A stretch of DNA of 64,000 nucleotides from assembly GCA_963979005.1 (NCBI GenBank), contig CAXBVF010000001.1:177-64176 (forward strand). The letters run 5' to 3'. The stretch comes from an uncultured Candidatus Altimarinota bacterium (GTDB lineage: Bacteria > Patescibacteriota > Gracilibacteria > BD1-5 > UBA6164). The position numbers and the translations under genes are program-made. The notes under the pieces are model-generated. The model ran no database searches and was not told the origin of the DNA. It was given only the letters and a program-made list of their open reading frames with translations. Shown here piece after piece: positions 8,067-53,147 of the stretch; the stretch's first letter is position 1, and every line of letters starts with the position of its first letter.

Positions 8067-11000
8067 ATGCAAAAATTTAATATGTCTAAATGAGTTAAAT
8101 TGTTAATAACCACATTATTAATAGTAGTTTGAGTTAATAATGTTAATGCGACTTACATACAAAATCCTGATGGAATTTGATGAAATGAACTAAGATTATG
8201 GTTAGAATCTACTTCGTGAGTTACTGGTAATACAGATTGAGCTAAAATTAGTCTTTGGACTGATAAGTCATGAAATGGTTTTGATGTATCTCAAGACCAA
8301 TTTATTAGTCAACCTACATATAGTGATAATACTACTTCAAATATAAATTTTTTACCAGTTGTTTCTTTTCCTACTAGTATTTTTACATACCTAGATTTTC
8401 ATACAGGTTTTGATGTAAATTGGAACAATGATTATACATTAACTGCTGTTCTTAGAAATAATACATTTTCATGATGAACATTTGTTGAAACAATAACTTA
8501 TGATGAGGCATTAAACTTAACTAAAACTTATTATAATTGAGTTAATCAATCATATGACCCAACAGCAACTTGATCAATAAACATTGGTGATTTTACGTCA
8601 TCATGAACTTTTGCTGTATGATGATATGGTTATGAATTTGACCTAGCTGAAGTACTTGTGTATAATAAGGAATTACCAATAGAGGATATTCAAGTATTAG
8701 AATCATATTTAGCACTTAAATATTGAGTTGCTTTTGAATGAAATGAATCTCTATCTCATGATTATTATGATTCAAATAAAAATATAATTTGAGTTCTACA
8801 TAGTAATACGGGTTTATGAACTACATCTAATTATTATTCATATTGATATTATGATACTAATTGAACTTATAGATACTCTACTCGCTATTTTTCTTTTAAT
8901 ACTACATGAATTGTTAGAGATGACGCTTTATGATTAAATGTAACAAAATCAAAAAATCAAAACTATGGTTACTGACTTGTAACAATAGAGAAAACTAATG
9001 CTTTAAATAATATGGAGCATTTACTTATATCTGATACTTGGTCATCAGTGGATTGGGATTTATTTGACGCACCTGTTTGATATAGTCTAGTCTCTAGAAG
9101 ATGGTCTACTCAATGAACAAGTGATAACATAAAGCTTACTTTTGATGTGGATAATTTAGCTTTAAATATTCCAGCTCCAGTTGATGGTTCTAGTAATTAT
9201 TATTTTATATATGATGCAGATTTAGATTGATTACTAGCTGATGAGTCACCACTTCCAATGTCTAATGACTGATGAGGAAATTATAGTATATCATGATTAA
9301 GTTTATCAGATAGACAAGATTTTACTATTGCTAGTTTATGAGAGTATAATTTTGCACCTAGAGTTATAAAAATAGATGATAGTAAATATTCTGATAGAAT
9401 AGAACTTAATACTCTTACATGATCTGTTATTTGAAATTTATCTGTAGTAGATGAAAATTCTTTGGATACACATACTTATGCTTTGGTGGCTTGAACGGGT
9501 TCTGAAGATAATGCCTTTTTCTCTATTAGTTGAAATAGCTTAAGTGTAAATTTTTCTGCAGATTATGCTAATCCATTGGATGCTAACCTAAATAATGTAT
9601 ATAATATATTAGTTGAAGTTACTGATAATTGAGGTTTAACTTATCAAGATACTTTCTATATATATGTAAATCAAGGATATGCTCCTACTGACCTAACTAT
9701 TGATGGTTTTGATGCTTTACATATAGATGAAAATAATTCATTATATTCTAATATTTGAACTCTTATTGCTACAGACCCTGATACTTCAGATACTCATTAT
9801 TTCAACTTAGTAACTTGAACATGAGATGAAGATAATAATTTATTTTATGTAGATTATTGACCATGGTTAGAAACACAATTTGTAGCTGACTATGAAGTTC
9901 CTCAAGATGCTAACGGTGATAATACTTATAATATACGTGTTGAAACAACTGATGCAGAATGAAATAAATTTTCAAAAGCACTTACTATTGTTGTAGATAA
10001 TGTTAACGAAACTAATGTTGCCCCTACAAATATATTAATTAATGGTTGAAGTTCTCCAACTATTGATGAGAATGAAGTAAATTGATTTGTATTTTGAAAC
10101 TTATCAACTACAGATGCAAATACCTGAGATACACATAGTTATACATTAACATGATGAATAGGTTCTGATGATAATTGAGCAGTTACAATTTCTTGAACAT
10201 CAGTATCACTAAATACTAGTCATGATTATGAAAATCCTGCAGATGCTGGTGCTGATAATATGTATGCTTTTAGAGTAAGTACTACAGATGCATTATGATT
10301 GACTTTTGAAAAAGCTTTTATTCTTAGTGTAAATGATGTTGCTGAGAGTAGTTCTCCTTATAATTTACAATTAAATTGATGAATTAGTGTTACAATTGAT
10401 GAAAATACTCCATCTTGAACTAATATTTGAGCATTTACGAGTGATGATTTAAATGTTTGAGATGTACATACTTATTCTATAGTTGCTTGAACGTGAGATG
10501 AAGATAATGGATTATTCATTTTATCTTGAAATAATCTTCAACTTGCTTTTACTCCTGATTTTGAAATTGAGGCTGATGCCAATGTTGATAATACTTATAA
10601 TATTAGAGTTAGAGCAACTGATAGTGATTCACTAACTACAGAAGCGGCATTTACTGTTGTTATTAATGATGTTAATGAGGCTATTAATAATGCTCCAACT
10701 GATATAAAAATCAATAATTTAGATACAATAAGTATTGATGAGAATATAACTAGTTGAACTAATATTTGAACTGTTTCAGTAATTGATCCTGATATTTGAA
10801 ACACACATACTTATACTTTAGTTAATTGAATTTGAGATGAAGATAATTCTAATTTTACTTTAGTAGCTACTACTCTTTCTTTAGCAATAACTCCTGATTT
10901 TGAAAATCCTGTAGATGCTAATAATAATAATGTTCATAGAATTAGACTTAGAGTTACTGATAATTTTTGATTAAGTTTTGAAAAAACTTTCAATATAACT

Positions 11001-12482
11001 GTTAATGATATATTTGAAAATACTGCTCCAAGTGATTTAAAAATAGCTGGTTTAGATGCAATAGATATAGCTGAAAATACTTCTACATGAGCTAATGTAT
11101 GAGCACTTTCGAATACTGATATAGATAATTCAGATACTCATACTTATTCCTTAGCAGTTTGAGCTTGAGATACTGATAATGGTCTTTTTAGAACTCATCT
11201 TGGTTCATTATTTATGGATTTTAAACCAGATTTTGAAAATCCAGTTGATACAGGTACAAACAACCAATATAATATTAGATTAAAAGTTACTGATAATAGT
11301 TGAGCAATTTTTGAAAAAGCATTTATTATATCTATTACTGATGTTTTTGAAAATACAGTGCCTACAGATACTAAAATAAATTCATTAAATGCAATTTCTG
11401 TAAATGAAAACATTACTTCATGATCTAATATATGAACATTATCAGTAGTTGATGGTGATATTTGAGACACATATACTTATTCATTATTAGCTTGAACTTG
11501 AGATGAAGATAATACACGTTTTACTATATCTTGAAATAGTCTTAGACTTGCATTTACACCAAACTTTGAATCTCCTATAGATTCTAATGCTAATAATATA
11601 TATAATATAAGAATTAGAGTTACTGATAGTGGATGACTTACATTTGATAAAGCATTTACAGTTACTGTATTAGATGTAAATGAAACAGTTGTTACTAGTA
11701 GTTGAGGTGGATGATCATCATGATGAGGTGGATGAGGTTGAGCAAAAGTATGTAGACAAGTTGAATTAGTTTGTAGAACAGCTCGTGCTACTTCTACTAG
11801 ATATAGAGTATATAGAGTAGAGTGAGCTTCTTGTTTAGCTGATTCTCTTTGAGATACTTGTGATCCTAAAACTTTTTGAACTGCAGATGCAGTTAAAGTT
11901 TCAAAAATAGCATTATATGTTTCTAAAAGTGAAAAAATTAATGAAATTGCAGTTAAGGTTGATGATATGATTAAAAAAGCTAAAAAACAAGCTGACGATG
12001 ATATTATTATTATGAGAAATGATGTAGTAAAAATAATCGAAGAGTATTTAGAAATATTAAAAACTAAAAATAAAGCAAAAATTGCTAGTGCTAAAGAAAA
12101 TCTAATAACAGAATTTAAAAAGTTTTTAGTTGAAGTTAAAAAGAAAAAAATTGTAATTGTAAAAGCTCCTAAACCTGTTGAAAAAACGGAAGACGAAGGA
12201 GTTGTAAAAGAAGAATGAGAGGAAGATGAAAGCTGAAAATATGTATCTCCTAATGATAGAATTAATGGTGTATGAGATAAACTAGATACACTTATTAAAG
12301 CAAAGAAGAAAGCTAATACTTGAACTATATTAGAAATGAGAAACTGACTGATGAAAGATTTAGAAGCTTATATGGTTTTATTACAAAGTAAAATCTCTGC
12401 TAGAACTAAAGCTATTCAGATAAAAATTTCTAAAAGAAATCTTATAAAAAAGATAAGAGCTTTTATGGCAGAAATTAAATAA
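8067..12482 (+). CDS. Giant surface protein: signal peptide, LamG-like lectin domain, 7 cadherin-like repeats, poly-Gly linker, coiled-coil tail
   Basis: 1471 aa with TGA=Gly. The N-terminal LRLWLESTSGVTGNTDGAKISLWTDKSGNGFDVSQ ... AEVLVYNKELPIEDIQVLESYLALKYGV is a typical LamG/ConA-like module. The repeats carry cadherin hallmarks (IDEN..., D.D..DTH.Y.L, VNDVNE..AP). Confidence 0.8.
9354..11687 (+). repeat. Seven tandem in-frame cadherin-like repeats (period 327-339 nt)
   Basis: Repeat units begin near 9354, 9681, 10020, 10353, 10692, 11025 and 11358. Each starts at (A/S)P(T/S)D/N and ends at V.DVNE/F. Confidence 0.8.
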
Positions 12483-20669: not shown

Positions 20670-23600
20670 ATGAAAAATTTATTAAAAATAGTTGTATTTA
20701 TATTTATTACATTATCTATGGCTAGTAGTGCTAATGCTATTAATGTAGGTATAACTAGTCATGAAACTACTAGTTGTCCATGAGATAATAATGATGTAAC
20801 TTATTATATTTCTTGAAATTCTTATGAAAGATTTTTAGGTGATATGTTTTGGACGTCTGATGATAGATATATTTCTACGAACTCTGATGTTACTATTTGG
20901 TATTCAGATCCAAATTTATTATCAGGTTGTAATAGTTCATCTGATTGGTCAAGAATAAGTTCACTTTCACCTGGTTCTAATACTGAAGTATTGGCTTTAT
21001 GAGCTAATTGTACATTTAATAAACCTACAGATAAAAATAATAGAACTTTACAATTTGTATATAATATAAAATATTATGATATCATATCTGGTTGAGGTGC
21101 TTCAATTTGAGATTGGGACCTTGCCTATTTTTTAAATACTACGGAAGCAAATGATAATACACCACATTTTTGATCATATACAAATGTTGGTTTTGATAAT
21201 GAATTAACTCATGACAATGAATGTTTTAATGTAGAACTTAGGTATTGTTGAGATGAAATTAGAGAAGCTACGGAATGAGAACAATGTGATGACTGAAATA
21301 ATATAAATTGAGATTGATGTAGTGCAACTTGTCAAACGGAACCAGTATGTAATAGCCTTACAGTTACTCCTGCTAGTTGATTACCAGGATTTAATACAGT
21401 TCTTAGCTGTAATTGAAATACTTCAACATATAGAATTGAAGTTGCAAATAATAATTGAACTATCATCGATTCTATTAATTCAAATTTTTGGAATTTATCA
21501 TTTTCAGATGTATGAACTTATACAGCTACTTGTTATGTTGCTTGAATAACTAGCCCAGCATGTACTAAAACTATTACAGTTACTCCTCCGGCATGTACTG
21601 CATGAACAATTACATGAGTTCAAACTTCAGCAATAGATGGATCTATTCCATGACTATGTCCAATAAATACTACAGCGGCAAATTTTGTAGAAGTAGTAAA
21701 TTGAACACTTTCAACTTATACATGGACATGTGATTGACTAGTATGATGAAATTGTAGTGCAAGTTATGATACTAATCCTGGTAACTGTACTGCTTGAACA
21801 ATTACATGAGTACAGAATGATGCACTTGATGGTACTGAAACATGATATTGTTCTTCAGGAACTTTTTGAGATTTTTTAGCAACAGTAAATTGAATTACAA
21901 CAAACTATACATGGTCTTGTGATTGAGAAACATGATGAACATGTAATGCAAGTTATTCTAATAATAATGGAGGTAATTGTATAGCTTGAACTACAAGTTG
22001 AGAGCAAAATTCTCCTATAAATTCAACAAATGTAGGATTATGTCCAGTATGACAAACTTCAGCAGATTTTTTATCTACACTAAATGGAACTATAACTAGT
22101 TATTCTTGGTCATGTGATTGAGAAGTATGATGAACATGTTGAGCTTATTATGATAGTTCTATAAATCATGTATGTGAAGCTTGAACGATAACTTGATTAC
22201 AAACTTCTCGTGTTTATCAGACTAGTACAGGACTATGTCCAGTGTGACAAACTGCTTGAAATTTTGTAACAAGTGTATCATGAAATAGATCTAGTTATAC
22301 ATGGGGATGTAATTGATTATCATGATGAAATTGTAGTGCAAGTTATGTAAGTGGATGATGAACTAGTGCATGTATATCTTGAGGAGTTTCATGAACAGTT
22401 TCTAGTCGTATAGATGTAACTACACCAAATTTGTGTCCTACATGAGAAATTGCGAGATGATTTCAAGCTACATTAGTAGGAAATACAATAAATTATTTAT
22501 GGACATGTAATTGAAGAAATTGAGGAAGTTGTCATGCTGATTATACAAGTGGATGAGGATGAGGAGGTTGAACATTTTGTTGAGATGGTTGATTACAAAG
22601 GCCTAATGATGATTCTATTTTAGAAGAATGTGATTTCTGATCTGGTACTTGGCCACTATGGTGTACTAGTTCTTGTCAAATTACAAATACTACAATGCCA
22701 AATTCTGGTCTATGAGAAATAACAATTCCATGAGGATGATCTTTTGATTTTTGACCAATTGATAATATTCTTATTTGAGTTTGAATGAATCCTTTTATAA
22801 CTCATGATTTAATACCATTTGTTACAAATAATTCAAGTTATGATTTTTATCTTTCAAAATTGTGTGTAAAATGAATTTGAACTTCTGTATCTTGAGCTGA
22901 GGATTGTAGGTCTATAAGTTTTTTACCTGCAACTTGAACTTATACATTTAATTCTTATCCAATTATTAAGTGAATAAATAACTTTATTGATTGAACTTCA
23001 TATTCAGATAATGAAATAAAAACTTATTTAGAAGATTCAAATTGAGATAGTTCATATAATGAAGCAATTTTAGATGTAAGAGTATCTAGACCTTCAATAT
23101 CTACAGTTTGAGGATGAACTACTTATTTACAAGATACTTCGGATATAGCAAATATTAATAATGTAGCTGATAATGATACTGAAAATAAAAACTTTGTTTG
23201 AGTATGAGTAGATACTGGTGATAACTCAAGTTATTCCGATGATATAGATGATAGTGATTTAATAGATGAAGTAGTAGAAGAATGAGAAGATTATTCGTCA
23301 GGTGTTTTAGATGATGTAATAGTAACGGTTAGTAATTTATGACCTGGTACTATGAGTAATTTTGAAAGTTATAACTGAATAGCTAATGTAAATATATTAA
23401 AAGATTATGACTTTGATATCACTTGAGGACAATGAACTAGTTTTCCTTCTGGATCAAGAACATATATAATTGAAAATTGAGATTTAACTATAAGTGAAAA
23501 TATAGAATTTTCTGACAATATAGCATTCATAGTTAAATGATGAAATATTATTATTAAAAATAATGTTACAAGAATTGATTGAACTTATATTACAATCTGA

Positions 23601-23849
23601 GATTCTATTGTTACATGATTATTTAAATGAGAAAGTTCTACTACAACAAATATATTATTAGTTAATGGTTCTCTATATTGAAACATTAATGATTTAATAT
23701 CAAAAAGAACTTATGTTAAACAACAAAGCTCTGGTTTAATAGATGTTTGAACAATAGTAAGTTTTGGGTCTTCTTTATTTAGAAAACCAGCACCATTGAT
23801 AACAACATTTATTAATGAATATCTAACAGCAGATAAAATTGCAAAATAA
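20670..23849 (+). CDS. Large secreted Cys-rich repeat protein
   Basis: 1059 aa with TGA=Gly and a signal peptide. Two CGDG-type Cys-rich modules (RYCGDEIREATEGEQCDDGNNINGDGCSATCQ and FCGDGGLQRPNDDSILEECDFGSG...) flank five 4-Cys repeats. Confidence 0.7.
21594..22570 (+). repeat. Five tandem in-frame 4-Cys repeats (period 192-198 nt)
   Basis: Units start at 21594, 21786, 21978, 22173 and 22371. The consensus is C.AGT..G.Q......(L/Y)C(P/S).G....F.......Y.W.C.G..GG.C.A.Y. Confidence 0.75.
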
Positions 23850-39400: not shown

Positions 39401-41953
<2,553 letters not shown>

Positions 41954-41981
41954 TAAAAAAAGAGCTTTTAGCTCTTTTTTT
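41954..41981. terminator. Bidirectional terminator between gyrA and the convergent orphan operon
   Basis: A-run, agagc, loop tttta, gctct, T-run. Confidence 0.6.
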
Positions 41982-41982
41982 A

Positions 41983-42726
41983 TTATTTTAACCATTGATC
42001 TATTTCTTTTCAGTCAATTTTTATATCAAGCTTTAATTCTAATTTTTCAATTATATTTATTATTATATTAGTAATTCTTCAAGATCAGAAATTTTTTTTC
42101 AACCCTCTTAATAAAGATATAAAACTATTATTTGTTTCATCTTTTATTATTCAAAATGAATAAAAAATATATGTAAGTTTATTTATTTTCTTTCATTTAG
42201 CATTAAACGCATTTATTGAAAAAGAATTTCATTTACTCTTTTCTAAAATAGCATCTACTTCATCCTTAGTTTCTTTAACTCTTTTTCTATTTAGTTTGGA
42301 TAATCATCAAGTTCCTTTTAATTCAGATTTATTTTTATCTTTTTGATTTTTTCAAGGTGTTTCTTCGTGTTTTCATCTTGGTTTCCATTTAAAAGTTTTT
42401 CTAAACATATTGCTTAAAGTTGTATTTGGAAAATCAAGTTCTAGTTCATTTTTGATTATTTTTTCGATTCATCTAAAATCTATTTGTCTTTCATAGTATA
42501 GATAGTATAGGTATTCAACTGGGTCTGCTCAGTTTTCATATCTGTTACTTAAAGCTGTTTTTAGATTTGCTAACCTGAGTTTAGGTTTGTTGTATCTTCA
42601 ATTGAATTGCTTATTTTCATTAGTATGTTCATTCAAAAAATCATCCATATTTTTTATAAATCCATTAGTGTTTGGAAAATTTGGACAAAAAATCTCTTTG
42701 TTTATTTTTGTTATATAGTTTTTCAT
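41983..42726 (-). CDS. Hypothetical basic protein, fourth (last) gene of the orphan operon
   Basis: 247 aa with TGA=Gly. Its start lies 2 nt after the stop of the upstream gene. It is Lys/Asn-rich and I recognise no family. Confidence 0.5.
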
Positions 42727-42728
42727 TT

Positions 42729-44279
42729 TTATTTACTTAATTCTCTAAATTTATTTGTTTGAAAATAAGCTCAACCTATTATTCATTTAGTTCTAAGGTA
42801 AGCTGTAAATTTATCTTCTCATTCTATATTAAAGGTTCTAGAATCACTTAATCATGAACTGATTCATGAAAATTCTCTTAATTTTTGTTCTACTGAATTT
42901 AGATTAGTTAAATTACTTTTTTCTTGTTCTCAAGGATTTTCTATATTTGAAATAAATGTTAATAATCTATTTCAAAACTTTCTTAATTCTTCATCTTTTA
43001 TTGAATCACCATCGTTAGGATTTATATTTATATCTCAAATAGCTAGTAAAAGATTTTCTCTATGTTCCCACACTCATTCCAGATTTAATTTTTTGAAAAA
43101 TTCATAAAAATTGATTAAATTTTCAGTTGCTTCTGGATTTCAAAGAGTAAGATTTTTTTCTTTTTCGGAAATAACTAATCATTCAATTTTTTCTCAGTTT
43201 TTTCATAATATATTATATTTTCATTCTCAAACTGGGGAGTAGCTATCTTCAGTAGGAGCATAATAATTATTAGAAGTATCACTAATTTTGTCTTGTTCTA
43301 TATCATTATTTTCATCCTCATGTTCATCTAATTCTTCTTCATTGTTTTCTGTTTCAGAATTACTTTTTTCCATTTCTTCATATCAGTATCACTTGTAGTC
43401 TTTAACACTTTCAACTATATTAAAATTGTACTTCTTTTGTAGGTCTGTAAACCTTTTAATAGCTGGATCTATAGTTGATAATAAGTTTAGTGCATAGTAT
43501 TCATCAGAATCTTTTATTAACGAGTCTTTTGTTGAATCTTTTAGTTTATTAAGTAGTTTTGTATATTCAGAATAATTAGAAAATATATCTGTTAATTGAT
43601 CATAATCCCTTACTCATATATTTTTTAGTACATTAAAGTAATTTTTGTTATTTTTAAAAACTTGAACTACTCATTTAAATTGAGTTCTACTAGCTAGTAA
43701 CTCTTTGGCTTGCACTTTATTATAGTCTAATATTATATTAATTCATTCTTTATCTGTTGTTCTTACTGCTTCTGTTTTAGCTATAATCTCTTCAATTTGC
43801 CCTAAATTTAAATTTTCTCAATCTTTATCTAAGATTTGATCATGTAATAATAAAACTAGTGAATGAACATCAAAATCATCATTTATTTCAAATTTTTCTG
43901 CAAAAAAACTATAAGCATCTTCTCAGTTTTCTGTTGTAAATCAATCTAAAGAGCTTTTTAAAATATCTAGATTTATATTAGAATCTATATTTTTTACTTT
44001 TTCACCATCATGGGGATTAATGCTTGTTTTCTCTTGAGAGCTATTTTTTAAATTATCTAATGTTTCTAATAATTGTTTTAATCAATTTATAATATCTCAG
44101 CTTTCAGCTAATTTTTCTTGAATTTCTTTTTCAGCTGGGGATTGATTTAATTCATCTGTATCTAGTGAAAATAAACTATCATCTCAGTTTTCATAACGTC
44201 AAATAAGCTCTTTGATACTGTCTGTATCAAAAGTTTGTAACTCTTCTTGGCTTATATTATCTGTTATATTTTCTGGCAT
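42729..44279 (-). CDS. Hypothetical acidic protein (516 aa) whose C-terminal domain is shared with the 44608-46662 product
   Basis: Open with TGA=Gly. The C-terminal GNPEATENLINFYEFFKKLNLEGVWEHRE...GIIGGAYFQTNKFRE is paralogous to the C-terminus of the first operon gene. Confidence 0.6.
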
Positions 44280-44281
44280 TT

Positions 44282-44602
44282 TTAAAAATTTAGTAGTGTA
44301 TTTAATTCTTTTTCCTGTTCTAGTTTTTCATTAGATTCTTCTTGTTTAACTTTTATCATTTTTTCTTTTATCTTTATATTTTTTAACTCTTCTATTAATC
44401 ATAAGTGCTCTTTATATTTTTTATCTAGTAAGTCATAAATTAATTTATAATTTCATGTTTTTAGAAAATTTAATAATTGTTCTAGCTCGTTTAAAGTAAG
44501 CAATTTTATACTTTGCTTTATAGGTAGTTGTATAGATTTATTCTCGATATAAATTAATATATTTAGAACTTCATCCTCTATTATTTTTCTAGTAGTGTTC
44601 AT
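44282..44602 (-). CDS. Small hypothetical coiled-coil protein (106 aa), second gene of the orphan operon
   Basis: Open with TGA=Gly. It sits 5 nt after the upstream stop and 2 nt before the next start. Confidence 0.45.
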
Positions 44603-44607
44603 ATATA

Positions 44608-46662
44608 TTATTTAATATTTTCTCTTAGCTTATGTATATTGAAATATGCTCATCATATAATTCAAAATTGCCTAAGCGAGTACTTAAAAGGATCTTCTCA
44701 TTCTATTCATTTTGTAGTATTATCACTCATAGATGATAGAGCTCATGAAAATTTTCTTAGCTCATTCTTCATTCAGTCTATATTAGATTTTTGTGAATAC
44801 TCAGCATTGTTTTTTTGTTTTTTATTGTTCAAATTATTTACAATAGAGATAATAGAGTTTCAAAATTTTAGTAATTCTGCTTTTGATACAGAGTCTTTAT
44901 CATTAAAATTTATATTCCTATTTCATATACTTATAGCTATTTCTTCTCTATATTCCCAAACTGATTCTAGATTTAATTCTCTGAAAAATTCATAAAAATT
45001 GATTAAGTTTTCAGTTGCTTCAGGATTTCATTCTATAATTTTCTTTTCTTTTTCTGATATAATTAGTCATTCAATAATTTCTCAACTTTCTGTTTGTAAA
45101 GAATATGATCACTTAGAAATTTCAACTGGTTTATAATTTATTTCTGAAGTCGAATTCGATACAGATGGAATATCAATATTTTCGTCGTTAAAATACTTAG
45201 ATAATTTAGGGGATTTATTTACTATTTCTTGAATAGCTGCTTCTCTTCATTTTTCTTCTACTAAAATAGAATATTCATTAACTTCTTTTGATGTTAAATT
45301 ATTTGATACATATTGAATTCTTTCAGCTAATTGTATTTCTTGATTTATTTGTGCAAATGCTTGTTTAGAATAATCTGTAGGATTATCGTTCATTTGTTTT
45401 AGAACTTGTTTTTTTTCTTCTAAATTTGCTCATGTAATGGCTGAAGCTAAGTTTTGAAATTCATTATCACTTAGTTTTTTATTTTTGTTGTCTAAATATT
45501 GAGATATATTATCACTTTCTATAAATCTTTGTAATTCTTTATCAGTAAATGCTCTTAAATCAAATGAACATGGTTCTTCTCAAGGTGTATTTAAAATTTT
45601 TATTCATTCTTTAAGTATAAATAATGAAAATTTTTCTATTTCTATTTTTAATTCTTCTGGAATTTGTCATTCTATTCTAGATTTAATAATATTTGTAGTA
45701 GTTTCTATAGCTTTTTCTTCTCAAATTTTATTAATTAATTCAACTTGAGCTATAGTTAATATTTTTTCAAATTTTTTTCTATCTTTTAATTTTGGTAAAT
45801 TAGGACAAGATTTTGAATATTTTTCTGTAAAATTTTGTAATTTATTTATTGATACATTTCATATACTTGTAGGTAATTTATCTTCTGAAATATTTATAAC
45901 TAATAAAGGATTTTCTATTATATCAGAAAAATTTATAACTTTTTCAATTATTTTTTCAAATCAAGCATCTTTAAGCATATTTTTAGCAATGGTATCTTTT
46001 GTTTTTTTCCATAAATATTTTAAATCTTTTGTTTTTTCTGATCAAAATTTTTCTATTAAAATATTTTTAGTAATTCATCAGTTTTCATTTAAATACATGA
46101 TATAGTTAGCTATCTCACGAGAGTTTATGTCTTTTAATTTGAGACTTGGTTCTTGAAGTTTTGATTCAAAATCACTTATTTTAGTTATGTAGTTTCAAAT
46201 TTCTTTGTTGAATCATTTTACATATCAGTTTCAGAATCATAAATCTGGACCTCATAGTATTTCATCTATTAATTCATCCTGAGAAGTATTTAAATCTGTA
46301 GTGTCTATTCATACTGAATCTAACAAATCACTGGTAATTCATACTGTTTCTGGTATAAATGCTAGTTTATCAAATACTGAATGTTCTTTTGAATCTCCAC
46401 TAAGTTTATTTAATTGAGTTAATTCTAGTTTTATTAGATTTAGCTCGTTTTGAGTTATTGAGTTGTCATTTTTAAAACTATCGATTGCAGTTTGTCTTAT
46501 TTCTTCATATTCTTTTTTAATTTCATCCGTATCTTTTCATTTTTCTTCTGCTAAATTGATTATATTATCTGCATCTTTAAGCACCTGAATGGTCTCTTTT
46601 CTTATTTCTTCAGATGTTGAATCAGATTCAGTTATTTGTTTTTGTATTTGTTCACTAGACAT
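44608..46662 (-). CDS. Hypothetical acidic protein (684 aa), first gene of the orphan operon
   Basis: Open with TGA=Gly. The C-terminal GNPEATENLINFYEFFRELNLESVWEYRE...GIIGGAYFNIHKLRE is shared with the 42729-44279 product. Confidence 0.6.
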
Positions 46663-46798
46663 AGTGTTTATTTTTATAGTATATTTGTATTATTTTATCA
46701 TAAAAATTCATATTTTTCAAAAAACTAATATGTAACTTGAAAAAAAATAGTTTTTTATTATGATAGAGCCGATATTATAACTAATATAGAGAGTAAAT

Positions 46799-48619
<1,821 letters not shown>

Positions 48620-51566: not shown

Positions 51567-53147
51567 ATGAAAATACAAAAAATAAAATCTAATAACTCTT
51601 TAGCTTTCACATTAGTAGAACTGATAGTAGTAATAACTATTTTAGCTATTTTGGGTACAATTGCATTCATAAGTTTACAATGATATAGTAGTGATGCTAG
51701 GGATAGCGCTAGGATATCTGATGTAAATAACATGAAAACAAGTTTAGAATTATTCCATCTTAATTCTTGAAGATATCCTTTCCCAGATAATTCAGAGAAT
51801 GTAACTTATAGTTGATGAACAGTAATTGTATGGAAACAATGAACACTTTGAGACACAGTTACAAGCCAATTATCAAAAAATCTAAATAAAAAACCATTAG
51901 ATCCTTTATATGAAAAGGAATATATATATTCTGTAGTTGAGAATGCTAATGAATATCAAATATTGTCTGTATTTGAGTCAGACTTACAGGCAAATAATTT
52001 GTTATTAAATAATGTAAATGCATTAGATAATTCAAATGTAAGATTGGATGGTATATATAATTGATTATATATAAAGACTACGAACTATATAATACCGTCG
52101 CCAAGTATAGTAACATCACTTAATCCAGCTTGATTGGATTTTAGTATAGCAACTATTGGGTCACAAGTAACAGATGGGGGGACAAATATTCCAAATATAT
52201 GAACAACTAAAGTCGTTCAGTCAACATGAGCATTAGTATTTAATGCTTTTGAAGTCTATGAATGAGTTTTAGATAAGAATTCAGATATAGGTTCATATGT
52301 ATCAGCATATAATGTATTATTAAATACATATAGTTGATCAAGTATAATAAGCGATTGAGTAGTAAATGAATTATTAGTACAATCTAATGATGAAGAGAAG
52401 ATAAATTTTGTAAATAGAGCAATATTAAAAAATAATAATAGTGTGGTAATATCTGATTGGAGAGATATTGATTCAAACTGTGATAAACCTGATGTAGTAA
52501 TTTGAACACAAACTTGGGCATGATGTAATTCTACAATATGAAATTGATTAGAATATGGTAAAAATGATAATTGAACAGATGGAATAATAGATACTTGTTA
52601 TAAGGCTTATGATGCGGTTACTAGTATCACTGCTGATTGTGTTATAGATAGTGTTGATATGGCTAGTAATACAAAGGCAAATACATGGTTTACTTGATCT
52701 AATATTGATTGAGATATAGAATTTGGTAGTATATGGTGAAAAAATTATACATGAGGAAATGCTGCAAGTGCTTGTATTTTTTGATATCATCTACCTACAG
52801 ATGCTGAACTTGAATATGCTGAAGAATATTTGATAGTAGCTGACTGATGAGCTCCAGATTGTAGAGTATCTGATAACTGGAATTGTGATTGAACTGGTTG
52901 GAAACTACATTCTACTACAAATAGTACAAATAATATGGTAGAAAAATTAAAATTACCTTTATCTGGTTTTCGTGATACTGATAGTACTTCATATAAACAT
53001 CGTGGTTTTCGTATTGCATTATGGTCTTCTACTACTGATATTAATGATGATCAAACAGGTAGATTATTTGGTTCAAGTACAGAGGGAATATGGCGTTCAT
53101 TTTGGCCTAAAACTTATGCATTTAATGTTCGTTGTATAGAAGATTAG
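51567..53147 (+). CDS. Type IV pilin-like protein fused to a C-terminal FISUMP (Fibrobacter major paralogous) domain
   Basis: 526 aa. The prepilin N-terminus is SLAFTLVELIVVITILAILGTIAF. The C-terminus LPLSGFRDTDSTSYKHRGFRIALWSSTT...AFNVRCIED fits the FISUMP pattern. Confidence 0.75.

What the first reader, a model, noticed from the sequence alone, without database searches (positions are those of the whole stretch)
41983..46662. Tightly packed four-gene orphan operon (684, 106, 516 and 247 aa) with no recognisable domains
Seen in the sequence: four minus-strand genes are separated by only 5, 2 and 2 nt. They are bounded by a divergent promoter region shared with alaS and by the bidirectional gyrA terminator.
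- All four are open only under TGA=Gly, so they are native.
- The two large proteins are acidic and rich in Asn, Glu and Lys. I see no signal peptide or transmembrane helix in them.
- The last protein is basic.
- I cannot match any of the four to a known family from sequence alone.

Inference: 4.7 kb devoted to a translationally coupled module in what is presumably a small, reduced genome suggests a functional multi-protein system. Candidates are a structural or effector complex, or a nucleic-acid-associated complex given the basic fourth protein. The function is unknown.
Basis: partly seen in the sequence, partly recalled or inferred. Interest (0 to 1): 0.65.

Follow-up and report, generated by a model that had tools for sequence, protein, structure and literature searches.

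The report
Lineage-specific modular protein locus, expanded here
The four tightly packed genes are real and expressed. They are a locally expanded version of a locus found between alaS and gyrA in nearly every related TGA=Gly (Gracilibacteria-type) genome examined, built around a previously undescribed protein family whose function is still unknown.

Summary
There are four minus-strand genes of 684, 106, 516 and 247 aa, separated by 5, 2 and 2 nt. They are readable only with TGA=Gly and sit between a 17-bp bidirectional hairpin after gyrA and a 136-nt divergent region before a short alaS. No curated library, solved structure or fold search matches any of them.

They are not orphans, however. 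A684 and C516 are paralogs that share a ~175-aa C-terminal domain (NPEATENLINF…W.YR…GIIGGAYF). That domain defines a family of at least 169 protein clusters, always at the extreme C-terminus, seemingly only in TGA-recoded CPR bacteria.

In 16 of 18 genomes a family member lies next to alaS and/or gyrA. This holds even where gyrA is only 75% identical. Most genomes have one gene. A-B-C-D occurs in three, A-B-C in one and B-C in two.

B accompanies the second (C-type) N-terminus. D is an optional basic add-on. The two paralogs here have exchanged parts.

Function is unknown. My best guess (about 0.4) is a leaderless intracellular scaffold with conserved end domains and a free-drifting middle. 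An exported host-interaction protein is the main rival.

The parts
44608..46662 (-). A684: an A-type member of the family. It is 684 aa, pI 4.97, with 33 TGA=Gly codons. It combines an A-type N-terminal domain, a middle domain and the C-terminal domain (CTD).
46363..46662 (-). A-type N-terminal domain of A684 (about aa 1-100). Consensus: ES..S.e.I..ET..LL..A..I…EYEELR…IT..EL..LK. In the homolog model it is a four-helix region.
   Evidence: An NTD HMM hits 12 family proteins, including the distant L015 and L016. Alignment A8. AF2 model of P0012, residues 1-97, pLDDT 80-88.
45904..46299 (-). Middle domain of A684 (aa 122-253). It is shared with the C-type proteins of L001 and L009 and with P0008, P0010 and P0012.
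   Evidence: 33-35% identity, E 4e-15 and 8e-12. Alignment A7.
44611..45153 (-). C-terminal domain (CTD) of A684 (aa 504-684)
   Evidence: HMM score 240.6
44282..44602 (-). B106: a 106-aa helical protein with a K/E-rich tail and a conserved LLNF end. It is always encoded directly upstream of a CTD protein with the C-type N-terminus.
   Evidence: The B HMM hits only window, L001, L009, L010/11, L019 and L017. Alignment A9. dN/dS 0.15-0.41.
42729..44279 (-). C516: a C-type member of the family. It is 516 aa, pI 4.48, with 27 TGA=Gly codons.
43950..44279 (-). C-type N-terminal domain of C516 (about aa 1-110). Consensus: GITEGLS.EQLQ.FD.DSIKE…
   Evidence: The C-type NTD HMM hits only the five proteins that follow a B gene.
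42732..43268 (-). C-terminal domain (CTD) of C516 (aa 338-516)
   Evidence: HMM score 265.3
41983..42726 (-). D247: a basic (pI 9.68) 247-aa protein with two conserved blocks joined by a K/R/E-rich linker. It is an optional member, present in three genomes.
42970..43223 (.). Copy 1 of a 254-nt direct repeat (CTD core of C516)
   Evidence: 74% identity to copy 2
44858..45111 (.). Copy 2 of the 254-nt direct repeat (CTD core of A684), 1888 nt from copy 1
41950..41986 (.). Bidirectional intrinsic-terminator hairpin shared with gyrA. The stem has 17 bp with U-runs on both strands.
   Evidence: -16.9 and -17.1 kcal/mol, z -6.0 and -6.4
46663..46798 (.). A 136-nt divergent intergenic region between A684 and alaS. 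It holds a promoter-like site for A684 (46720-46692, TTGAAA-17-TAAAAT with TG) and one for alaS (46737-46764).
   Evidence: Promoter-like sites are not enriched over shuffles in this AT-rich DNA, so this is only suggestive.
39401..41953 (+). gyrA: conserved flank, given for context
46799..48619 (+). Short (606 aa) alaS: conserved flank, given for context

Best explanation
Shown. This is the local, expanded state of an old, vertically inherited locus of TGA=Gly CPR bacteria (Gracilibacteria-type).
- The slot between alaS and gyrA holds at least one gene for a leaderless, acidic, all-alpha-helical protein.
- That protein has three parts: a conserved ~100-aa N-terminal helical domain, a fast-drifting middle of very variable length (proteins run from 450 to 1476 aa), and a conserved ~175-aa C-terminal domain with a short basic tail.
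- In this genome the gene exists as two tandem paralogs, A684 and C516, which have exchanged segments through their shared CTD repeat.
- The second paralog carries a distinct N-terminus that always comes with the 106-aa helical protein B.
- A basic protein, D, has been added at the end.
- All four genes are expressed, very probably as one transcript.

Inferred.
- The conserved ends are handles that bind conserved cellular partners, or each other.
- The middle is a spacer under weak constraint.
- B is a dedicated partner or chaperone of the C-type N-terminus.
- D is an accessory, possibly DNA-binding, factor.

Most likely reading. The proteins act inside the cell as a lineage-specific scaffold or adaptor rather than as enzymes or classical secreted proteins.
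For: - Paralogy of A and C.
- CTD family size and position: 169 clusters at E<=1e-3 and 40 at E<=1e-30, with the CTD always at the protein's end.
- Lineage restriction: members are W-rich and G-poor (TGA read as Trp) or properly translated under code 25.
- Synteny: a family member is next to alaS and/or gyrA in 16 of 18 genomes. This includes relatives with gyrA at 75% and alaS at 53% identity.
- N-terminal types, and B occurring only with the C-type.
- Segment exchange: the A684 CTD is closest (59-63%) to C-type proteins elsewhere, and the C516 CTD is closest (60-63%) to single A-type proteins. The middle domain of A684 lies in C-type proteins elsewhere. A 254-nt direct repeat is present.
- No catalytic-looking invariants. 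The invariant CTD residues are Y, E, P, N, L, I, F, L, W, R, D, E, F, L, F.
- No signal peptide or transmembrane helix, whereas surface proteins in the same window carry classical signal peptides.
- All-alpha models.
- Evolutionary rate: dN is 5-7 times that of gyrA, but dN/dS stays at or below 1 for A and C, is 0.15-0.41 for B and about 0.52-0.55 for D. This fits weak constraint plus purifying selection on the ends.
- RNA contigs cross the D/C, C/B and B/A junctions.
- The locus is near-identical in 20 seawater metagenomes from 2016-2020.
Against: - There is no positive evidence of location or of any partner. 'Scaffold' is inferred from absences (no leader, no enzyme motifs) and from composition.
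- Copy-number variation, mosaicism and nearby IS elements (L011, L012) are also typical of host-interaction genes.
- Both models have moderate confidence only (pLDDT 62.6 and 63.8).
- The longest predicted helices are about 33 aa, so this is not a classical coiled-coil filament protein.
- A C-terminal amphipathic membrane-targeting helix was tested and not supported.
- The RNA evidence comes from unstranded, low-depth contigs that could contain DNA.
Confidence: 0.4

Rival explanations
1. Leaderless exported host-interaction proteins. The conserved CTD with its basic tail is a common export or docking signal recognised by a dedicated machine, for example the Patescibacterial type IV secretion system, whose substrates are unknown. 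The variable middle is the host-facing part, B is an export chaperone or adaptor, and D is a regulator.
For: - The architecture is a variable body with a conserved C-terminal module.
- The last 12 residues are net positive in 69% of members, against 29% of random windows, in proteins averaging a net charge of -27.
- Evolution is fast, the genes are mosaic, copy number varies and IS elements lie alongside.
- PrgI- and TraC-like T4SS genes sit across alaS in L014.
- T4SS components are widespread in Gracilibacteria with unknown cargo (bioRxiv 10.1101/2025.01.22.634366).
- The lineage is host-dependent (PMC11452946; PMC6851277).
Against: - There is no homology to BID or any known translocation domain.
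- T4SS genes are adjacent in only 1 of 18 loci.
- Deep vertical conservation in a housekeeping neighbourhood, usually as a single copy, is unusual for arms-race effectors.
- dN/dS does not exceed 1.
- The basic tail is part of the conserved domain and need not be a signal.
Confidence: 0.25
2. One reading: a nucleic-acid-associated complex. Basic D binds DNA and recruits the acidic A and C proteins, for example for nucleoid organisation or segregation next to gyrA.
For: - D has pI 9.68 and a net charge of +17, with +11 in its central linker.
- It has two conserved helical-looking blocks.
- The weak best hit of block 1 is a MarR-like winged-helix chain, E=0.12.
- The locus lies beside gyrA.
Against: - D is present in only 3 of 18 genomes, while the A-type protein is present in all, so DNA binding by D cannot be the core mechanism.
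- No HTH or other DNA-binding family matches D, even at E<=10.
- A and C have no Walker or other nucleotide-binding motif that I could see. This is my reading of the sequences, not a formal motif scan.
- Adjacency to gyrA is convergent, across a terminator, so the genes are not co-transcribed with gyrA.
Confidence: 0.12
3. A mobile, defence or toxin-immunity island inserted between housekeeping genes. Candidates are a polymorphic toxin with immunity, an abortive-infection module, or a prophage remnant.
For: - Gene content between conserved flanks is variable.
- Transposases lie next to the module in L011 and L012.
- A toxin-antitoxin (ParE) pair lies near gyrA in L002 and L004.
Against: - PADLOC and PHROGs give nothing.
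- There is no relative in 2.9 million viral contigs or in BFVD folds.
- The conserved part is the C-terminus and the variable part is the body, which is the reverse of polymorphic toxins.
- Single-gene loci have no downstream immunity gene, because gyrA follows directly.
- GC content and TGA=Gly usage are native.
- Synteny is vertical down to 75% gyrA identity.
Confidence: 0.05

Closest known systems
Cytoskeletal proteins of the Mycoplasma pneumoniae attachment organelle (HMW1, HMW2, P65 and others). This comparison is from my own knowledge and was not tested here.
   Same: They are large, leaderless, acidic, mostly helical and lineage-restricted. They diverge fast, and they occur in a reduced-genome bacterium that lives attached to other cells. 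They act as intracellular scaffolds.
   Different: There is no sequence or fold similarity. The defining EAGR-box and acidic-proline-rich regions were not seen. The long coiled-coil rods of HMW2 have no counterpart, since the longest predicted helices are about 33 aa. No localisation data exist here.
Type IV secretion effectors with a conserved C-terminal translocation module, such as the Bartonella Bep proteins (BID domain plus basic tail). This comparison is from my own knowledge.
   Same: Both have a variable body, a conserved helical C-terminal domain of about 100-175 aa, a positively charged extreme C-terminus and no Sec leader. Small chaperone or adaptor proteins are encoded nearby in some systems.
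   Different: There is no detectable similarity to BID or any Pfam family. No coupling protein or T4SS is linked to the locus, except that PrgI- and TraC-like genes lie nearby in one genome. The family is conserved vertically as a near-single-copy gene.
LXG/WXG100 polymorphic toxin loci of type VII secretion in Firmicutes
   Same: Both have a large protein with a helical N-terminal domain, encoded next to a ~100-aa all-helical partner protein, in tight operons.
   Different: B has no W at all, so it has no WXG motif. There is no LXG Pfam match. Here the C-terminus is the conserved part rather than a variable toxin. No immunity gene is present in single-gene loci, and no EssC-type ATPase is nearby.
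C-terminal sorting or docking modules on diverse cargo (dockerin, T9SS C-terminal domain, SLH)
   Same: The concept matches: one conserved C-terminal module at the very end of proteins with otherwise unrelated bodies.
   Different: Those modules sit on proteins with Sec signal peptides and have beta-rich or EF-hand-like folds. These proteins have no leader. The acidic loop in the CTD does not fit EF-hand or dockerin spacing, and no Pfam match exists.

Membership tests
Any curated protein family (Pfam-A, NCBIfam, PHROGs, PADLOC) | A score above the family's curated cut-off, or a significant E-value | tested here: not met
   For all four proteins the best hits are 11-19 bits with E>=0.0026, all far below the cut-offs. 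No Pfam family matched at E<=0.001 in any of 36 long family members; the best hit was DUF4116 in two members at E=0.0012. Lenient scans of CTD and D members give no recurring family.
Polymorphic toxin / toxin-immunity systems | A conserved N-terminal trafficking region with a variable C-terminal toxin domain | tested here: not met
   The C-terminal ~175 aa are the most conserved part (44-60% identity to C516 among the closer homologs, 35% for the most divergent) and the body is unalignable.
Polymorphic toxin / toxin-immunity systems | An immunity gene immediately downstream of the toxin gene | tested here: not met
   In L002, L003, L004, L015, L018 and L019 the CTD gene is followed directly by convergent gyrA.
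Type VII secretion WXG100 / LXG | A WXG motif in a ~100-aa helical hairpin, an LXG N-terminal domain, and an EssC-type ATPase nearby | tested here: not met
   B106 contains no Trp. There are no WXG100 or LXG Pfam hits. No FtsK/EssC-like gene appears in any of the 18 loci, judging from the gene and Pfam tables.
T4SS effector with BID-like C-terminal signal | A BID domain | tested here: not met
   There is no Pfam or PDB sequence match and no Foldseek match for the CTD.
T4SS effector with BID-like C-terminal signal | A positively charged C-terminal tail | tested here: met
   The last 12 aa are net positive in 69% of 105 members, against 29% of random windows. This feature is weak and non-specific.
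T4SS effector with BID-like C-terminal signal | Dependence on a T4SS or coupling protein encoded in the genome | not testable with these tools
   Only a 64-kb window is held. PrgI- and TraC-like genes are seen near the locus in L014 only.
EF-hand / dockerin Ca-binding module | A 12-residue loop with liganding residues at positions 1, 3, 5 and 12, Gly at 6 and a hydrophobic residue at 8 | tested here: not met
   The invariant D85 and E93 are 8 residues apart, and the D-x-D-S-I spacing does not fit the loop (alignment). There is no EF-hand or dockerin Pfam hit at E<=10.
Helix-turn-helix / winged-helix DNA-binding proteins (for D247) | A match to an HTH family profile or structure | tested here: inconclusive
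   There is no Pfam HTH hit at E<=10. The best PDB-profile hit for block 1 is a MarR-like chain at E=0.12. No structure model could be made with correct Gly residues.
Coiled-coil-rich / intermediate-filament-like cytoskeletal proteins | A long uninterrupted coiled-coil rod | tested here: not met
   The AF2 model of homolog P0012 has many helices of 10-33 aa separated by loops. It has pTM 0.36 and no long rod.
Peripheral membrane proteins with a C-terminal amphipathic targeting helix (MinD/FtsA type) | A high helical hydrophobic moment in the extreme C-terminus | tested here: not met
   The mean hydrophobic moment of 39 tails is 0.30, against a background of 0.30. No tail exceeds the background 90th percentile.
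Phage or mobile-element genes | Relatives in viral genomes, or hallmark genes alongside | tested here: not met
   There is no relative in IMG/VR contigs and there are no BFVD fold matches. PHROGs give nothing. IS transposases are neighbours in two loci but are not part of the module.

The most novel reading that the evidence does not exclude
The family may be a core component specific to TGA=Gly CPR bacteria. It has an A-type or C-type N-terminus, a variable body, and the NPEAT…GIIGGAYF C-terminal domain. Two forms of this reading remain open. In one, the proteins are the missing cargo of the Patescibacterial type IV secretion system, with the CTD as its translocation signal and B as an adaptor. 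In the other, they are the backbone of a lineage-specific intracellular apparatus for attachment to or predation on host cells. Either way this would be a new protein architecture tied to the episymbiotic lifestyle of an uncultivated class.
Probability: 0.2. Interest if true: 0.75.

Novelty: categorically new. Interest (0 to 1): 0.45.

Why it matters
Gracilibacteria and their relatives are uncultivated or barely cultivated, host-dependent bacteria with a reassigned stop codon. Roughly half of their genes are unannotated. This work turns four 'orphans' into a defined family with a recognisable architecture, a diagnostic C-terminal domain, two N-terminal types, a dedicated small partner and a fixed genomic address.

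- The family can now be searched for, counted and tested.
- Because nearly every genome sampled keeps one copy beside alaS and/or gyrA, it is a good candidate for a lineage-defining cellular function.
- It is also a warning for annotation. Most database copies are mistranslated (TGA read as Trp) or fragmented, which hides the family from routine searches.

'Categorically new' here means only that no relationship to any known family or fold was detectable. It does not mean that a new mechanism has been demonstrated.

Tried and rejected
1. Word-indexed homolog searches with A684 and D247 returned only the window's own proteins translated with TGA=Trp. The family was reached through C516 and through a CTD profile.
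2. An EF-hand or dockerin reading of the acidic loop INxNDxDSIxxxEL was rejected on residue spacing and the absence of profile hits.
3. A C-terminal amphipathic membrane-targeting helix was rejected, because its hydrophobic moment equals background.
4. Foldseek of the CTD model and of the full-length homolog model against PDB and BFVD gave only generic helical-repeat or tape-measure noise, with E>=0.1.
5. PDB profile searches gave nothing for the CTD, D, the two D sub-blocks and the A-type N-terminal domain. B hits designed armadillo repeats at E about 4e-6, but no individual stretch passes, so I treat this as helical low-complexity bias.
6. The hypervariable gene reported in a closed marine Gracilibacterium genome is an unrelated PTD-repeat surface protein (PMC6851277).
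7. A population-variation test for diversifying selection was uninformative. The species' locus is essentially clonal across metagenomes, and the listed variants come from other organisms' gyrA.
The frequencies of the arrangements are therefore a small sample and not a census.
9. The C-type status of the N-terminus in L017 could not be shown (no HMM hit), although a B gene precedes that protein.
10. Structure prediction of the window's own proteins with correct Gly residues was not possible, because only database versions with Trp at TGA were accepted. Code-25-correct homologs P0005 and P0012 were modelled instead.

Full report
**Observation**

With TGA read as Gly, the window (26.4% GC) has four minus-strand ORFs at exactly the stated coordinates: A684 (44608-46662), B106 (44282-44602), C516 (42729-44279) and D247 (41983-42726). 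The gaps between them are 5, 2 and 2 nt.

The genes contain 33, 2, 27 and 13 in-frame TGA codons. Under table 11 they shatter into pieces of at most 74 aa. TGA=Gly is verified independently, because window TGA codons align only to TGA or GGN in orthologous genes and never to TGG. In gyrA the counts are 42 TGA, 16 GGN and no other codon.

In the four genes, 81-100% of Gly codons are TGA, against 45% in gyrA. GC content is in the local range. The genes are therefore long-term residents of a code-25 genome.

- pI values are 4.97 (A), 4.48 (C) and 9.68 (D).
- No hydrophobic segment could form a transmembrane helix, since the maximum Kyte-Doolittle 19-aa score is 1.16.
- The N-termini are polar and acidic.

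The downstream boundary is a perfect 17-bp hairpin with U-runs on both strands (-17 kcal/mol, z about -6) between the stop codons of gyrA and D247. The upstream boundary is a 136-nt region shared divergently with a 606-aa alaS.

Three consecutive gaps of 5 nt or less are unusual here. Only 7 of 51 same-strand pairs in the window are that tight, and the median gap is 59 nt. Shine-Dalgarno-like motifs are almost absent genome-wide (3 of 63 genes), so 'translational coupling' is inferred from spacing only.

**Known families**

Pfam, PHROGs, NCBIfam and PADLOC give no significant hit for any of the four proteins. There is no Rfam element in the region.

A684 and C516 are paralogs. Their last ~178 residues are 51% identical (E 2e-51). 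At the DNA level this appears as a 254-nt direct repeat at 42970-43223 and 44858-45111, with 74% identity.

This C-terminal domain (CTD) has the motif …GNPEATENLINFYEFF.ELNLE.VWEYR…IN.ND.DS…EL..FGN…FSG…EGED.F…LR..GIIGGAYF…F, followed by a short basic tail. A profile of it, searched against 1.84 billion representative proteins, finds 169 clusters at E<=1e-3 and 40 at E<=1e-30. In every full-length hit the domain sits at the extreme C-terminus of a 450-1476 aa protein.

Almost all hits have 3-6% Trp and about 1% Gly, which is the signature of TGA read as Trp. The remainder are code-25 translations. The family therefore appears confined to TGA-recoded CPR lineages. No Pfam family reached E<=0.001 in any of 36 long members scanned; the only near-hit was DUF4116 in two members at E=0.0012.

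**Genomic address**

I examined 18 distinct genomes. They are the window plus L001-L020, counting L005=L002, L011≈L010 and L013≈L012 once each. In 16 of them a CTD protein lies beside alaS and/or convergent to gyrA, inside a conserved backbone that runs rpoA-rplQ-rplM-rpsI-rpsL-rpsG-rpmA-NTP transferase-gyrA-[X]-alaS-cofD.

This holds even for distant relatives. Examples are gyrA at 75% identity in L015 and L018, and alaS at 53% in L016. In L008 and L020 the gene lies next to proS instead.

The content of the slot varies:

| Arrangement | Genomes |
|---|---|
| A-B-C-D | window, L001, L009 |
| A-B-C | L019 |
| B-C | L010/11 (with a transposase where D would be) and the distant L017 |
| two CTD genes, one apparently disrupted | L007 |
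| single gene | the other eleven |

HMMs for B and D hit nothing else in any locus.

**Architecture**

Two N-terminal types exist.
- The A-type (ES..S..I..ET..LL..A..I…EYEELR…IT..EL..LK) is found in A684, in most single-copy proteins and in the distant L015 and L016.
- The C-type (GITEGLS.EQLQ.FD.DSIKE) is found only in the five proteins directly preceded by a B gene.

A684 also has a middle domain (aa 122-253). Elsewhere this domain sits in C-type proteins or in single proteins.

The CTD of A684 is closest to the CTDs of C-type proteins of other genomes (59-63%). The CTD of C516 is closest to those of single A-type proteins (60-63%). Together with the 254-nt repeat, this indicates that the two tandem paralogs have exchanged segments.

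**Evolution**

Against L001 and L009, the nonsynonymous divergence and dN/dS ratios are as follows:

| Gene | dN | dN/dS |
|---|---|---|
| A | 0.47-0.75 | about 0.73-0.97 |
| C | 0.51-0.62 | about 0.61-0.76 |
| D | 0.43-0.58 | about 0.52-0.55 |
| B | 0.18-0.37 | 0.15-0.41 |
| gyrA | 0.07-0.11 | 0.155 |

dS is near saturation and the middles are poorly alignable, so these ratios are rough. They fit conserved ends plus a weakly constrained body and do not require positive selection.

Within the species the locus is essentially invariant across about 20 seawater metagenomes from 2016-2020.

**Expression**

Contigs from two metatranscriptomes cover D, C, B and the 3' part of A. They bridge the D/C, C/B and B/A junctions at depths similar to alaS and gyrA. 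The contigs are unstranded and of low depth, and DNA carry-over cannot be excluded.

**Structure**

AlphaFold2 could only be run on database sequences. I therefore used code-25-correct homologs.
- The CTD of P0005 gives pLDDT 62.6. It forms a three-stranded sheet followed by helices.
- Full-length P0012, an A-type protein sharing the N-terminal domain, middle domain and CTD with A684, gives pLDDT 63.8. It is all-alpha, its N-terminal domain is a four-helix unit at pLDDT 80-88, and its longest helices are about 33 aa.

Foldseek against PDB and BFVD gives nothing better than E=0.1. Profile searches against PDB sequences are also empty.

**Interpretation**

Three features argue for binding modules rather than enzymes: the conserved N- and C-terminal domains, the absence of catalytic-type invariant residues, and a body of freely varying length.

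The lack of any leader argues against ordinary secretion, because surface proteins in the same window do carry classical signal peptides. One is a 1471-aa cadherin-repeat protein and another is a 1059-aa Cys-rich protein.

Deep vertical conservation in a housekeeping neighbourhood, usually as a single copy, argues for a lineage-specific cellular role. I therefore favour an intracellular scaffold or adaptor, at about 0.4. In this reading B is a dedicated partner of the C-type N-terminus and D is an optional accessory.

The main rival, at about 0.25, is a leaderless exported host-interaction protein with the CTD and its basic tail as the export signal.
- The tail is net positive in 69% of members against 29% of random windows.
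- T4SS genes are widespread in Gracilibacteria with unknown cargo (bioRxiv 10.1101/2025.01.22.634366).
- PrgI- and TraC-like genes lie next to alaS in L014.
- Against this, no known translocation domain is detectable and the link to a T4SS is anecdotal.

A DNA-associated complex centred on D is unlikely to be the core function, because D is absent from 15 of 18 genomes. A mobile, defence or toxin island is disfavoured by synteny, native composition, and the lack of viral or PADLOC relatives and of immunity genes.

**Verdict**

What is new is a defined, lineage-restricted protein family and locus with no detectable relationship to any known family or fold. Its mechanism remains inferred.

Noticed in passing
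window 42970-43223 and 44858-45111: A 254-nt direct repeat (74% identity, 1888 nt apart) lies inside the two large genes. It is a ready substrate for recombination that would delete or swap B and parts of A and C.
   Followed up: yes
window 41983-46662 versus 39401-41953: In the four genes 81-100% of Gly codons are TGA (33 of 35, 2 of 2, 27 of 31, 13 of 16), whereas gyrA uses TGA for only 45% (29 of 64). The recoded codon is strongly preferred in these AT-rich, fast-evolving genes.
   Followed up: partly
window 46799-48619, and all related loci: alaS is only 605-606 aa (647 aa in L016) in every genome examined, compared with about 870 aa in typical bacteria. It retains the catalytic and tRNA_SAD domains but apparently lacks the C-terminal part.
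   Followed up: no
window 8067-12482 and 20670-23849: There are two large surface proteins with classical signal peptides. One is a 1471-aa protein with cadherin repeats (Pfam E 3e-29) that ends in a Gly run and a K/E-rich helical tail. The other is a 1059-aa Cys-rich repeat protein with a weak DUF4215 hit.
   Followed up: partly
window 51567-53147: A 526-aa protein begins with a type IV prepilin-like N-terminus (…FTLVELIVVITILAILG…). Similar giant pilin-like genes sit directly beside the CTD gene in L002 (851 aa), L003 (639 aa) and L017 (358 aa).
   Followed up: no
L001 4222-5199, L019 3049-4017, L012 3038-4066, L010 6219-6749: A further unannotated gene family of 176-342 aa, with a shared C-terminal …YDE(M/L)K..L…LN.L.II.KN, lies on the opposite strand between alaS and the module in four genomes. 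It is absent from the window.
   Followed up: no
L011 5730-6929 and L012 5954-6778: A DDE transposase and an rve-type integrase lie immediately downstream of the CTD gene, in the place D or gyrA occupies elsewhere. The slot is therefore a site of rearrangement.
   Followed up: partly
L014 1994-3534: PrgI (VirB3-like) and TraC-like type IV secretion genes plus a 118-aa ORF sit just across alaS from the CTD gene in this one genome.
   Followed up: partly
L007 11280-14515: A second CTD gene looks disrupted. A 765-aa ORF with an A-type N-terminus runs into an LKLMKL… repeat, and a separate 112-aa ORF 600 nt downstream carries the rest of the CTD. This could be a frameshift, a pseudogene or an assembly problem.
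   Followed up: no
L020 9545-19414: A 3289-aa giant ORF lies convergent to the CTD gene in a genome where the family member sits next to proS instead of alaS/gyrA.
   Followed up: no
window 45643 and 45994-46051: One metagenome (X20) carries an in-frame AAA insertion after 45643 in A684. Separately, a 30-nt unit is repeated 1.9 times inside the same gene.
   Followed up: no
database copies P0001, P0011, P0013 and most of P0014-P0159: Public protein collections hold these genes mostly translated with TGA=Trp (3-6% Trp, about 1% Gly) or fragmented. This is why routine searches see them as orphans. P0013 also differs from D247 at four of nine residues in one short stretch (SINAFNAKG versus SIDVFNTKW, one of the four being the TGA position), which points to a local strain difference.
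   Followed up: partly
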